Of a stretch of DNA of 64,000 bases, positions 24,480-29,278 are shown one piece after another. How positions within the stretch are numbered: position 1 is the stretch's first letter; the number at the start of each line of letters is the position of its first letter. The stretch comes from Neodothiora populina (Eukaryota): NCBI RefSeq assembly GCF_041146345.1, contig NW_027191402.1, positions 496,001-560,000 on the forward strand. The letters run 5' to 3'. The notes beneath the pieces were generated by a model that worked only from the letters and a program-made list of their open reading frames with translations, made no database searches and was not told the origin of the DNA. Position numbers and translations under genes: made by a program.

Positions 24480-26606
24480 TGTTGGGTATTGGAAAGAAGA
24501 ACAAAAATTTACAAAAGATCGATCATATGGGTATACATCTTCATCTCATATTGGTGAAGGTCGTCTGGAATCACCGGATCGCCCCAGATAGGAAGAAGAA
24601 GCCTACCTGAGAATGTGACTTCGACAAACGAATTCGAAGGTACACTGGTATCCTCTAATAAACAGCCTCTTCACGCAGACGGTATGATATCCAACGCGCA
24701 AAAGCTTTGTCTAAACCATTACCCAGCCATGATGAACGAATCTAGCCCGAATAGGCTAGTCTGACAGCGGATCCTGGAATCATCCGATTACAAGATCACC
24801 TTGTCACAAGATCTCTGCTTGCGACGGATAGTCATCTCAGGCCTCGGGATTGCGATGACCATGAGTAAAAGAAGTAGAAATGGATCGCGCCGCTGTGCTG
24901 TTCCTCGTATCGGTGCCTCAAGTACATGCGAGCGAAGTCTACCTCACCTTACAAAGTATTCATGTTTTCAAACTTTTGGAACTCTTGGGAATCGAAGTAC
25001 GATTAATCTGGGATAGATTGCATGATGGTGGATCTAGCCCAAAAAGGTTAAAGCTGGCATGTGGTGCTTTGGAAGACCATCGCGCGAGCACATCTTACCT
25101 TATCTTTCAGTTCGTGTGCTCTGTACCGCTCGTGATAGCCCCCTAGAGTTGATGCTCTGTATGATGAAATATAGGGATAGTATGGTGGAATAAGGTGATT
25201 AATTTCTTGCTTACCCCCTACATTGTAGAGGGGGAAGGCCTCAACTATTTACATTGACTACTCGAGTCCCAGCCCCCTTGTAGGCTTGCATAGCTCGAAT
25301 GCCTCGAGTAATTGTCTTCTCAACACTGTGAGAAATTAATAGCAGGTAGAGTGACTTGACTGGATCTGCGAGATGGAGCTATCTTCGGCGCTACGACTAT
25401 AATCATATCTATCAAAGACCACCTAGTCCTGGATCGATGCAGGCGATGCAAGGGAGGAAAGTTGTCTCACCTGATGTAAAGAAAGGTAATGCCCTACCCG
25501 TCTTAGTCACAAGTCTTGCTGTACAAGATTCCCCAGCGGGCGGCACAGCCACATATCCAGTAAAAAGTCATGTCTCCTTGCGCATATTCCTTGACTGAGT
25601 CATCGATTTCGATACCACGCAGGAAGCCCACTCCAGATAGGTGACGCCTTCCATTTAGTTCCGTATAAAAGCTTAGACAAAGCTCCAACCGGAGTGATCT
25701 GGAGTAGCATCGCATACAGCGCACATGTACGTAGTCCGGCGGCTATCTGAGCAGCTTAAAACTTGGCTATGATAGGCTTGGCTGTGATAGACCTCTCCGC
25801 GCGTGAGCGAGTAGACCAGGGTAGGCATTGTTCTGATGTCCCGGCTGATTGATTGTCTGTCTCGGATAATCTATCTAATCTCAGATTTCGTCTCCTTCTC
25901 TCCTTGTTTGCAATAGTATGGAGTTGCATATTGCTCATGCTTGGTTGATTTATTTCTTTTTCTTGTTCTGGTGATAAGATCGTGACCTGGTCTTCACATG
26001 GACTAATCAGCACTGCGGGGTTTGAGAGACTAGCCACTATCATTTGTGTTTCCTGAAAATAAGTTTCATTTAAGATCTTGAGATGGAAGAAGGCCCGTCG
26101 TCTTAATCAATAGACCCCCCGCCTGACGAACGCAAGTAGGCATCGCCAATTGATCAGATAAGTTTAATAATGGCGCATCCCTTTCTCTCGCTCAACATAT
26201 CTCGTGCCATGCATGTACTTGTATATTATCTTATTGTACAGGTGAGACATTTTCCTCGTGACTTTCGTATCCTTGCACTGCAAAATGCAGCAAGGCTGAC
26301 CACCCGCCCTAATGTACTTCCAGCCAACTTGTATTCCCCCCTCTCGCCCAGTATACGCGCTGAGCGATACCGACGATTCCCCTGCGCTGGATGTCCTTCT
26401 TGACGGGGTCGATTCGAGAGTGGCGATGGCGTTGTGACAAAGCGGAGATGCCTACGCATGATTTGCTGTAGTGCCGGAGCCTGGTACAGTCGAGAAGTCT
26501 AGATATACTCCGGTCCGAATGCAGACAAGGCTATCCGGTCAGTGTTTGTCTGTCGCAATACACCAGTAACGTATGCATGTATCTTGTTGACAGATACACC
26601 ACCGCC

Positions 26607-27710
26607 TTAGTAGTCGCCACTGCCGCCATGACCAACACCCCCGTAGGGAAAATCTGATGTCGCTTCTTGCGGCTCCATTGCGCCACCGAGAACGCCATGT
26701 CCTCCAGCATCGTATGGCGGCGAAGTGCTGACCGTGTTGGCACCACCACCGGCGCCTGATTGACGTGGCTGTTCGCCTCTGGCAACGAGAGTCTGGTGGT
26801 ACTGTTAGTAAAAGCGTGTCTTTCGTTGTCATCACTCCTAGAGTTTCTTTACTTCTCTGTATCGCGCCAGGTAGATCTTCAGGGCTTCGGCATAATTCTC
26901 GAATCCGAGGGATGTCATGGCGAATAGAATGTCTTCGCCATTGACCGTCTTCCTTTTCTCCTGTTGACATTTCTCTGAGGCTGAAATCGTTGGAAAGAAC
27001 GAATTAGCCGCGTGGTCGTGACGCGATCAGTCAGCGCGTCGAGTCACTCCTCTCCTGGGCTTACCTTCACTTGTGATGAACGATATGAACTCGCTCACGC
27101 ATTCTTGCATGCATTCTTTGGCTTCTTTAGCGATTTTGGCATTGTCTGGCAGGGCGCCTTTCATAATCCTCGCCACTGGAGCAAAATTGCGAATATTAGC
27201 ATCGGAGGTTGATTCATTGCTCCCAGCGCGAGCGCGCTGCGGCTGTGGACGAGACGGTTGCGGGGACTCAGAGGAGGAGGACATTATTATCGCCAGCCGA
27301 CCTGTCAGGAATATGGCCGCAGATCGAGGGCTGGCAGGAGCTACTCTGATTCGACGAATGACAACAAGTGATACGCGCGGTTGAGCTGTATAAGTGGAGG
27401 TGAGGGCGATACCGGGGACGAAATTCGTCGACATGCATGTGGTCGCGCAAAGGGCGCACAACAAGGAAGCAATGGGGCATGGGTGACGGCCGCACCATGG
27501 GTCAATACAGCAAATGAAACATGCGATCCACATACCGTTTGCAATGGGTAACCACCGATCCTGTTCCTTGACTTCGAACTGGTCCCCAAGTTCGAGGTGA
27601 CCGGCGTTCATGTCTTGGAGTTCATTCTCGTCAGGCGACTGCTGAGCTTCTGCTGTTGAATTTGATGTCGCCGGCTCCTGAACTTCAGCTGCTCGAGGAC
27701 TTTCCGACAT
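26607..27710 (-). CDS. HAP3: CCAAT-binding complex subunit Hap3/HapC (NF-YB histone fold)
   Basis: [71 protein letters not shown]. Introns 27176..27535, 26981..27064, 26793..26852. Confidence 0.95.
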
Positions 27711-29278
27711 ATTGTATGCGGCGACTTGCAGTCCAAGAGCCCCACTCACGGCTCTGACTGCTATGCGCTGGCAATTGATTCGCTGGCCAGCCACGTCAGT
27801 ATTAAGATCCTGCAACCCAAGACGCAAGAGCGGGCCTTGTGCGACTATGCCGGGGACCACAGTCTGCAAGGCACGGGGATACTGACCGGATTTCCAAATG
27901 CTCAAGCGACAGTGTAACGCGTCACTCTGTCGCGTTCCTTGACTGACCAACTATCGGAGTCAGTAATGCGACAATATTTATGGTTCATACAACATTTCCC
28001 GCGGTATCGTGACGCGAGCTGTGTTGGCAAAGGTGGGCTGCGCCGCGACAGCCCATGGTTGAGTACCTACGGTGGATCTACTTTTGTGTGGAAGCTTGCC
28101 GAGTCCTGATGCGCAATGGCAAACCGCAGGGGTTCGGAGAGTATGCAGCAGTATGGTCGAAAACGATGATGCCCGATGACTCTGCGACGCAGCGCGATGC
28201 AATCAGTGACGACAGGATGGCACCTGGGACAGCAAGTGCTACACGATGGCGGCGTATATTCAGGGATCGCAAACCAACGCGAATGGACTGAACTCGTTAG
28301 TGATTGGGTATTGATGGATTGTTGCAGAGTCAAGGGCTCCCATCAAGGTACGGCTCAGCGCATATAAGTCGGACTAGGTACAGCAAGCAATACACCACGC
28401 TAAGCTTAATCGTGGTCGCCTTACTGAACCTACTGTAACGTGCAGTGCAGTGCGCTTTATACTGGAGGGTAGCACACTGACGCTGCACAGACCCTGATGA
28501 TCCAGGGACAGTCGCTGTGCGGCAACAAGCGGGGTACCAAGCCGCAGGGCAACAATTAAGCCGATACTGGACGGACGTGGAGAAGTGCCTTCATATGATA
28601 GGTACCTTTCGCTTCTCGACATATCAGATCATTTCCAGCAACCTCACTCTAACATCAGAGCGTTTCACTTCGCAGGAGTATGTCTTCGAGAAGTATGCGT
28701 AGCTGCAAGACCACATGCGTGACATGATCATGAGCCTTCGAAGAAGCTGTAGCATCCATGTTGCTGTGGAATGGCTGGGTGAGCATGACCAAGCAGGCTG
28801 TACATCCGACCCAGAAGAAATAAGAACAACGCCTCGTGCTGAGTTCACTATCTACCTAAATTTTCCAAGCAGCTCAGCAACATACGTATGCGCGTGTCTG
28901 CCTTCATCATGGATGTAGATAATATACACGTAGCTTCACCTACTATGGCCAGCGGGAAGCATATCATCCCTATTCATATAACTAGATTCCAATACGGGCC
29001 TCGGATGCAGCGCGAATCACTCCATGACTCTGGATGCCCGGTCAAGCTGCCAGCTGTGCATGTTCCGTGTTGGATTTCAGGCTTCCACTGAGCTATCGGG
29101 TTGGGTCACAGCGATAAGCGCTGGGACTGCTCTAGAGTAGCGCTTACACAATCACATGATTGAGGGTAGGCAATGTGAAATGCTTGAATCAATATCGTAA
29201 CTTTGGCAAGTTCTGTGGTCAAATTGAGTCCTAGAGACGCATGAAACTTCCAGGAATGGCCTGATATCGATTCATAGA

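What the first reader, a model, noticed from the sequence alone, without database searches (positions are those of the whole stretch)
27176..27535. HAP3/HapC intron 1 is a 360-nt, in-frame, stop-free intron carrying its own ATG and an alternative N-terminus
Seen: this intron splits LPIAN|VARIMK at the start of the histone fold and is about six times the typical local intron length. It is exactly 120 codons with no in-frame stop; (61/64)^120 is about 0.3% under uniform codons, somewhat more at this GC. It contains an in-frame ATG at 27284 with A at -3, giving [14 protein letters not shown]...[15 protein letters not shown], which echoes the SESP of the canonical start MSESP. The branch point and acceptor (GCTAATATTCGCAATTTTGCTCCAG) double as codons. 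Inference: up to three NF-YB isoforms (spliced, +120 aa retained, internally initiated lacking DRWLPIAN). The latter two could alter DNA binding or act as dominant-negative regulators of the CCAAT complex, which controls respiration and, with HapX, iron homeostasis. I recall similar ANIRNFAP text in other Pezizomycotina Hap3 gene models but cannot verify it here.
Basis: partly seen in the sequence, partly recalled or inferred. Interest (0 to 1): 0.7.

Follow-up and report, generated by a model that had tools for sequence, protein, structure and literature searches.

The report
Hidden alternative start exon in HapC
The long first intron of this fungal CCAAT-factor gene hides a second protein-coding start, kept in many filamentous fungi but apparently missing in Aspergillus and Penicillium, that replaces the beginning of the subunit's DNA-gripping helix and may yield a regulatory version of a master transcription factor.

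Summary
The +120-aa retained form is chance: 22 orthologous introns are 7/7/8 by length mod 3 and none is both 3n and stop-free. The last 36 codons are a real coding exon: 25 of 26 orthologous genomic loci have an in-frame ATG 31-48 codons before the acceptor, and DANIRNFAP varies almost only synonymously (pN/pS 0.02; 0.45 for the Ser/Pro-rich part). Six contig-derived proteins start at this ATG with both later introns removed, which points to RNA. All 15 intron-less fungal contigs show the canonical splice, so the form is minor. It is absent from 75 Eurotiales-type HapC proteins. Most likely an intronic promoter makes a 177-aa HapC-B that still binds HapE (model 0.85 vs control 0.02) but lacks DRWLPIAN, weakening DNA binding; promoter and function are inferred. 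Nine literature searches found no description. The scan noted the same exon earlier in another genome (e1-7559320).

The parts
27536..27710 (-). hapC/HAP3 exon 1 coding part (ATG1; 58 codons + 1 nt, ends DRWLPIAN-G)
   Evidence: spliced product matches P0002
27176..27535 (-). intron 1 of the canonical transcript, 360 nt, phase 1
   Evidence: same junction spliced in 15 of 15 intron-less Pezizomycotina-type contigs L001-L015
27285..27535 (-). non-coding 5' part of the intron; candidate internal promoter and 5' UTR; open frame here is chance
   Evidence: frame not conserved in relatives; 10% chance of being stop-free
27386..27396 (-). TATA-like box CACTTATACAG (CATATAA at -98 to -113 in L018, L021, L035)
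   Evidence: function inferred
27344..27355 (-). conserved GTCGAATCAGAG box: CSAAT-type CCAAT-complex site or initiator-like element, 69 nt before ATG2
   Evidence: TCGAATCA in 7 of 25 introns, at offsets that do not keep frame; CGAAT binding shown in PMC4954732; function here inferred
27176..27284 (-). hidden alternative first coding exon: ATG2 + 36 codons, Ser/Pro-rich then DANIRNFAP, continuous with exon 2
27195..27200 (-). branch-point motif GCTAAT doubling as Ala-Asn codons; acceptor CCAG doubles as Pro
   Evidence: third positions of these Ala and Pro codons are invariant in 24 of 24 loci while the other seven codons vary
27065..27175 (-). exon 2 (VARIMK...ITSE), shared
26853..26980 (-). 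exon 3, shared
26607..26792 (-). exon 4 coding part to TAA, shared

Best explanation
The 3' third of hapC intron 1 is a dual-use sequence: intron for the main mRNA, and first coding exon for a minor second mRNA. Step 1 (shown by comparative evidence): the 36 codons from ATG 27284 are under protein-level purifying selection across Pezizomycotina. Step 2 (indirectly shown in relatives, not in this species): RNAs holding this exon with the later introns spliced exist. Step 3 (inferred, about 0.65): they start at a promoter inside the intron, roughly 60-110 nt before ATG2, which carries a CGAAT-type site and so may be controlled by the CCAAT complex itself. Step 4 (modelled): the 177-aa HapC-B keeps the histone-fold core and its three cysteines and still pairs with HapE. 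Step 5 (inferred, about 0.5): swapping W-L-P-I-A-N for I-R-N-F-A-P removes the proline that opens helix alpha1 and puts a proline one turn later, weakening DNA backbone grip and bending, so HapC-B titrates HapE/HapB into weakly binding complexes and damps CCAAT-complex activity. The stop-free 3n state of the whole intron in this species is incidental.
For: In-frame ATG 31-48 codons upstream with open frame in 25 of 26 genomic orthologues found with a query lacking intron sequence; the second frame is closed by a stop within 3-8 codons in all, the third has a Met in that range in 4 of 26. Last nine codons, 24 loci: summed entropy 0.66 bits at codon positions 1+2 against 7.38 at position 3; 12 synonymous against 2 non-synonymous codon types; control intron 2 ends 16.5/15.6/14.8 bits. 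pN/pS 0.02 and 0.45 over 12 pairs, some loci used twice. Purine at -3 in 20 of 26. 9 of 70 contig-only proteins with this N-terminus have intron 2 removed, six also intron 3; two share their N-terminus with unspliced entries. For a separate start site: in 5 of 22 orthologues the exon-1 frame runs past ATG2 out of frame without a stop, which rules out reinitiation there; ATGs are scarce in the 65 nt before ATG2 (7 vs 15.8 expected) but not further up (44 vs 30); conserved non-coding boxes. HapE binding: score 0.85, best control 0.02, three runs agree in at least 94% of contacts, partner pLDDT at least 83; mark reached by 51 of 78 solved and 2 of 108 mismatched microbial pairs, 71 of 105 solved and 2 of 126 unrelated eukaryote pairs; a like complex is solved (4g91), so the pass may be from memory, and the HapC-B used was an Aureobasidium gene model. 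Structural analogy: in HapE the proline at the loop/alpha1 boundary is followed by residues that bind the backbone, and P88L blocks DNA bending (PMC7266990 passages).
Against: No start site, read depth, ribosome or peptide evidence was obtained; 15 of 15 intron-less Pezizomycotina-type contigs show only the canonical form. The spliced contig proteins cannot tell an intronic start from intron retention, their DNA could not be read, and one of the nine (P0125, 36.5-kb contig) suggests that some are splice-aware gene models. TCGAATCA is in only 7 of 25 introns, all Dothideomycete-like by my reading, and shuffles ignore kinship. The near-invariant DANIRNFAP, with hydrophobic residues kept at the W and I positions, is more constraint than a mere loss of DNA binding would need. 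Effects on DNA binding were not modelled. 7 of 25 introns' worth of upstream ATGs within 65 nt (6 loci) would hinder scanning.
Confidence: 0.5

Rival explanations
1. Same alternative first exon, but HapC-B is an active variant subunit: it still binds DNA and changes affinity, site preference, partners (HapX, remodellers) or phospho-control through its Ser/Pro-rich tail, doing by isoform what Candida albicans does with paralogues Hap31 and Hap32.
For: Extreme conservation of DANIRNFAP (I 229 of 229, A 229 of 229, N 228, F 227, R 208; query-biased set); Arg and Asn could give new phosphate contacts (inference); 27% Ser and 12% Pro in the tail; single HAP3 in this genome; Hap31/Hap32 form complexes under different iron conditions (PMC6652802 passage).
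Against: E-Q-D-x-x-L-P-I-A-N is invariant in the 23 canonical sequences aligned, including non-Pezizomycotina ones, and a change at the matching HapE proline abolishes bending.
Confidence: 0.3
2. HapC-B is made from the normal promoter when intron 1 is retained, by reinitiation or leaky scanning to ATG2.
For: Retention is the commonest alternative splicing event in Fusarium graminearum (61.9%, 10.1101/2021.11.08.467853 passages); in 17 of 23 introns the exon-1 frame stops 33-342 nt before ATG2; several donors are non-consensus (GTTGGT 5 of 22).
Against: In 5 of 22 orthologues the exon-1 frame overlaps ATG2; ATG1 has A at -3 and the upstream frame would be 60 or more codons with several further ATGs in the way.
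Confidence: 0.12
3. The segment is a cassette joined to exon 1 by an alternative acceptor just upstream of the Met, giving LPIAN-insert-VARIMK as many public gene models draw it.
For: Most models have this form; some loci have an in-phase CAG 2-17 nt before the ATG.
Against: YAG sites upstream are not phase-biased (28 in phase, 27 and 18 out) and lack branch points; model insert starts are inconsistent while the Met is constant; no contig-only protein combines exon 1, insert and a true intron-2 splice (0 of 23).
Confidence: 0.04
4. The whole 120-codon intron is translated as a functional retained insert.
For: Open here and in one close relative, P0001 (115-aa insert).
Against: 0 of 22 orthologues are 3n and open; P0001, P0003 and P0009 read the upstream intron DNA in a different frame from the window.
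Confidence: 0.02
5. The conservation is nucleotide-level (branch point, acceptor or an RNA structure) and gene callers misread it as protein.
For: The motif overlaps GCTAAY and CCAG.
Against: Three-base periodicity of change, including CGN/AGA Arg; pN below pS also far from the splice signals; no Rfam match in the intron at E up to 10; folding z-score -1.41; Eurotiales introns keep only an ANI echo of the branch point.
Confidence: 0.02

Closest known systems
Canonical HapC/Hap3/NF-YB subunit of the CCAAT-binding complex (Aspergillus HapC, PDB 4g91 chain B)
   Same: The spliced product matches 4g91_B over residues 47-138, E 8.5e-53; HapC-B keeps everything from VARIMK on, including the three redox cysteines described in PMC2831313 (passages).
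   Different: HapC-B lacks exon 1 and the [10 protein letters not shown] start of the fold; Eurotiales HapC, the studied form, shows no sign of the exon (0 of 75).
HapE P88L mutant complex of Aspergillus (PMC7266990)
   Same: Change at the proline opening helix alpha1 of a histone-fold subunit; trimer forms but DNA binding and bending fall (passages).
   Different: A point mutation in the partner subunit; equivalence of the HapC proline is my inference from the LP-IAN / LP-LAR pattern, and here the change is a conserved natural isoform.
Candida albicans Hap31/Hap32 paralogues
   Same: Two alternative Hap3 subunits competing for Hap2/Hap5 (PMC6652802 passage).
   Different: Two genes with intact folds, not one gene with a swapped helix start.
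Alternative-start and micro-exon switches in fungal regulators (Metarhizium Mr-OPY2, PMC5691130; Trichoderma Xlr2, PMC11121469) and NF-YA splice variants (PMC6896337)
   Same: Isoform choice changes a regulator's output or DNA-binding domain (search listings and abstract starts only).
   Different: Other genes and mechanisms; none of these listings concerns NF-YB or a coding exon laid over its own intron's branch point.

Membership tests
NF-YB/Hap3/HapC (canonical isoform) | Histone-fold core homologous to solved NF-YB/HapC | tested here: met
   PF00808 on P0002
NF-YB/Hap3/HapC (isoform B) | Intact N-terminal EQDRxLPIAN segment opening helix alpha1 | tested here: not met
   replaced by DANIRNFAP
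NF-YB/Hap3/HapC (isoform B) | Heterodimer with NF-YC/HapE | tested here: inconclusive
   model supports it, 0.85 vs best control 0.02, but a like complex is solved and the pair is cross-species
NF-YB/Hap3/HapC (isoform B) | CCAAT binding and bending as a trimer with HapB | not testable with these tools
   no protein-DNA modelling or assay available
Alternative first coding exon (internal promoter) | Conserved in-frame start and coding-type selection | tested here: met
Alternative first coding exon (internal promoter) | Mature RNA containing the exon | tested here: inconclusive
   indirect: spliced contig-derived proteins in relatives; contigs not readable; none for this species
Alternative first coding exon (internal promoter) | Capped 5' ends within the intron | not testable with these tools
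   no RNA holder listed; only sequence hints
Conserved in-frame retained intron (exitron-like) | Length 3n and stop-free across orthologues | tested here: not met
   0 of 22; frame shift in close relatives
Intron-encoded structured RNA (snoRNA, riboswitch) | Rfam match or unusual folding stability | tested here: not met
CBC:HapX target site (CSAAT-N12-RWT) | RWT 12 nt after CSAAT (PMC7144946) | tested here: not met
   window reads CGAAT-N12-TGC at 27353; only the CSAAT half is present

The most novel reading that the evidence does not exclude
Most filamentous ascomycetes carry a built-in negative feedback loop for the CCAAT complex: the complex binds CGAAT-type sites in the first intron of its own hapC gene and drives a second transcript whose product is a natural DNA-binding-deficient NF-YB that sequesters HapE/HapB, so tuning respiration, iron, redox and sterol genes; Aspergillus and Penicillium, where the complex is studied, lost the loop.
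Probability: 0.2. Interest if true: 0.85.

Novelty: new variant of a known kind. Interest (0 to 1): 0.68.

Why it matters
The fungal CCAAT complex is treated as a fixed trimer regulated by HapX and redox state. A second HapC form conserved across several fungal classes, changing exactly the start of the DNA-contacting helix, would add an unrecognised layer of control over a master regulator of respiration, iron, sterol and cellulase genes. It is directly testable with one peptide (NFAPVAR), one ATG mutation and one binding assay. It also explains a widespread annotation oddity: many public hapC models carry an insert in the histone fold that is probably this exon wrongly fused to exon 1. Its apparent loss in Eurotiales would explain why work on Aspergillus missed it.

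Tried and rejected
Sequencing runs: no RNA holder listed for window 26300-28000, so no reads were laid; this is no evidence either way. Cluster membership of the spliced contig proteins could not be looked up. Rfam: two chance-level hits, both outside the intron. Folding z -1.41. AlphaFold2 monomers of isoform B (P0123; pTM 0.25) and the canonical form (P0002; pTM 0.41) were too poor to compare helix starts. ESM Atlas gave only NF-YB clusters. Viral and prokaryote collections gave no useful orthologues. The sigma-70 scan does not apply to a fungus. Unbiased 8-mer search: best motifs in 16-17 of 25 introns against 12-15 in shuffles, so only marginal; the CCAAT-like patterns were chosen after seeing the data. 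Intron 2 being 3n in all loci is a selection effect of the tblastn ranking and was rejected as a finding. The echo between MSESP and MSSSSESP was not tested (low complexity). Rows left out: loci L053-L080 and L083-L086 were not examined; L029 (same as L028 over the region) was dropped; L016 (divergent, DHFIGNFAP); L033 (no motif, truncated). Literature: nine full-text searches and passage searches in PMC6652802, PMC4954732, PMC7144946, PMC13221647, PMC7078317 and 10.1101/2021.11.08.467853 found no mention of a HapC/Hap3 isoform; subscription papers, including the original hapC/hap3 cloning papers, are not in the library, and supplements (bioRxiv ones closed, others not opened) may list such isoforms.

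Full report
Observation. The gene is on the minus strand: exon 1 27710-27536, intron 1 27535-27176 (360 nt, phase 1), exon 2 27175-27065, intron 2 of 84 nt, exon 3 26980-26853, intron 3 of 60 nt, exon 4 26792-26607. The spliced product has the length, ends and sequence stretches of P0002, named by its source as a Neodothiora populina protein, and matches solved Aspergillus HapC at E 8.5e-53. It is the only HAP3 found in the genome. The intron is stop-free in frame, holds ATG 27284 with A at -3, and ends in codons for DANIRNFAP that overlap the branch point and acceptor.

Orthologues. A metagenome search with exons 2-3 only, so blind to intron 1, gave 461 relatives, of which the best 80 were kept; I examined L001-L052 and L081-L082. 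Twenty-six are genomic Pezizomycotina-type loci, 23 with a whole intron 1, 22 distinct. Lengths run 184-556 nt (median 296), 7/7/8 by length mod 3, and none is both 3n and stop-free. One close relative from the protein search, P0001, is open throughout, but it and two others read the upstream intron DNA in a different frame from the window. The +120-aa retained isoform is therefore not conserved.

The hidden exon. In 25 of the 26 loci an in-frame ATG lies 31-48 codons before the acceptor with no stop between; the exception, L033, is truncated and Penicillium-like. In 24 sequences (window plus 23; L016, L029, L033 left out) the last nine codons vary almost only at third positions (0.66 bits at positions 1+2, 7.38 at position 3; 12 synonymous, 2 non-synonymous codon types), while intron 2 ends vary evenly. 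The only frozen third positions are those splicing needs (GCT of GCTAAY, CCA of CCAG). pN/pS is 0.02 there and 0.45 in the Ser/Pro-rich part over 12 pairs, some loci reused. Named protein models with the motif come from Aureobasidium, Hortaea, Botrytis, Fusarium, Trichoderma, Xylaria, Cladophialophora, Xylographa, Sphaerosporella and others (these sets are biased by the query; class assignments are recalled). In contrast, 0 of 75 core-containing proteins found with the L033 C-terminus, nearly all Eurotiales by name, carry it: 70 are canonical and 5 read unrelated residues, two with only an ANI echo of the branch point; 19 further hits had no usable core start. Loss in Eurotiales rests on gene models and one partial intron.

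Expression. No RNA run was listed for this locus. Fifteen fungal contigs without introns 1 and 2 (L001-L015, read as transcripts) all show the canonical junction, so the canonical form dominates. Of 74 contig-only proteins, 70 begin with the alternative N-terminus; 61 read through intron 2 like genomic DNA, and 9 have it removed, six of them intron 3 too; P0137 and P0148 share their N-terminus with unspliced entries. That points to mature RNAs holding the exon, with two limits: the contigs could not be read, and P0125 on a 36.5-kb contig shows that some entries may be splice-aware models.

How the RNA arises. An alternative acceptor is unlikely (YAG phases 28/27/18, no branch points). Retention with reinitiation is possible in 17 of 23 introns but impossible in 5 orthologues where the exon-1 frame runs past ATG2. 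An internal promoter fits best: ATGs are depleted just before ATG2 (7 vs 15.8) but not further up (44 vs 30); a TATA-like box and TCGAATCA recur at -98 to -113 and -48 to -115, offsets that do not keep frame. TCGAATCA is in 7 of 25 introns (shuffle mean 1.25; kinship not corrected). CGAAT is a shown binding site of the complex (PMC4954732, PMC7144946; passages), which suggests feedback, but the box could equally be an initiator. This step is inference.

What the protein would do. HapC-B (177 aa) keeps the core from VARIMK on. A model of an Aureobasidium HapC-B with this genome's HapE scored 0.85 against a best control of 0.02, with runs agreeing in at least 94% of contacts and partner pLDDT at least 83; the mark was reached by 51 of 78 solved and 2 of 108 mismatched microbial pairs; confident contacts begin at the Pro of NFAP. 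A like complex is solved, so this shows likeness, not binding. The swap turns W-L-P-I-A-N into I-R-N-F-A-P. Helix alpha1 is among the main DNA-binding parts of the dimer (PMC3422339 passage); a 7-residue Hap3 stretch is reported as needed for DNA binding (PMC6652802 passage; that it is this stretch is my recall); and at the matching HapE proline, P88L lengthens the helix and blocks DNA bending (PMC7266990 passages). I therefore favour a weakly binding, titrating isoform (0.5 overall) over an active variant with altered properties (0.3). Monomer folds were too poor to decide.

Known or new. Nine full-text searches and passage searches in ten papers (no whole text read, no supplements) found no description of such an isoform; subscription literature is not covered. 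Public gene models contain it without comment, either starting at the internal Met or fused to exon 1. Verdict: a real, conserved alternative first coding exon of fungal NF-YB; new variant of a known kind; interest 0.68.

Noticed in passing
P0247, P0251, P0255, P0267, P0289, P0310: Several Eurotiales-type HapC entries start at the Met of VARIMK; one is on a 1008-nt contig with later introns spliced. Could be truncated contigs, or a degenerate remnant of the internal start.
   Followed up: no
L016:215-551, P0172, P0197, P0216, P0218: Divergent versions of the exon (DHFIGNFAP, DTDIRHFAS, DSHIHNTAP, KLIGNFAT, AQIHNKAI) keep the Met, Ile and Ala but not the branch-point codons; P0218 is held both as an NCBI model and in Logan.
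   Followed up: partly
intron 1 upstream of ATG2 in L024-L050: Recurrent non-coding boxes TGATTYGCG and TGACTGGCRTCGC, each one mismatch from reverse CCAAT-box consensus, across Leotiomycete- and Sordariomycete-like loci.
   Followed up: partly
window 27285-27356, minus strand: The 24 codons before ATG2 ([24 protein letters not shown]) are kept in frame in three close relatives but not in more distant loci; 5' UTR conservation or a lineage-specific non-AUG extension.
   Followed up: partly
window 27782 and 28307, minus strand: CGAATCA 72 nt before ATG1 and CCAATCA about 600 nt upstream: the main promoter also has CCAAT-type sites.
   Followed up: no
L049, L051: Basidiomycete-like loci (my reading) have an intron at a different place, between LP and IAN, with no such exon.
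   Followed up: no
L091, L092, L093: Own genome: single matches read as NC2-beta, HapE and HapB; one HAP3 gene only.
   Followed up: partly
L081, L082: NF-YB-like genes with an intron inside contigs labelled as bacterial and archaeal MAGs; probably eukaryotic contamination.
   Followed up: no
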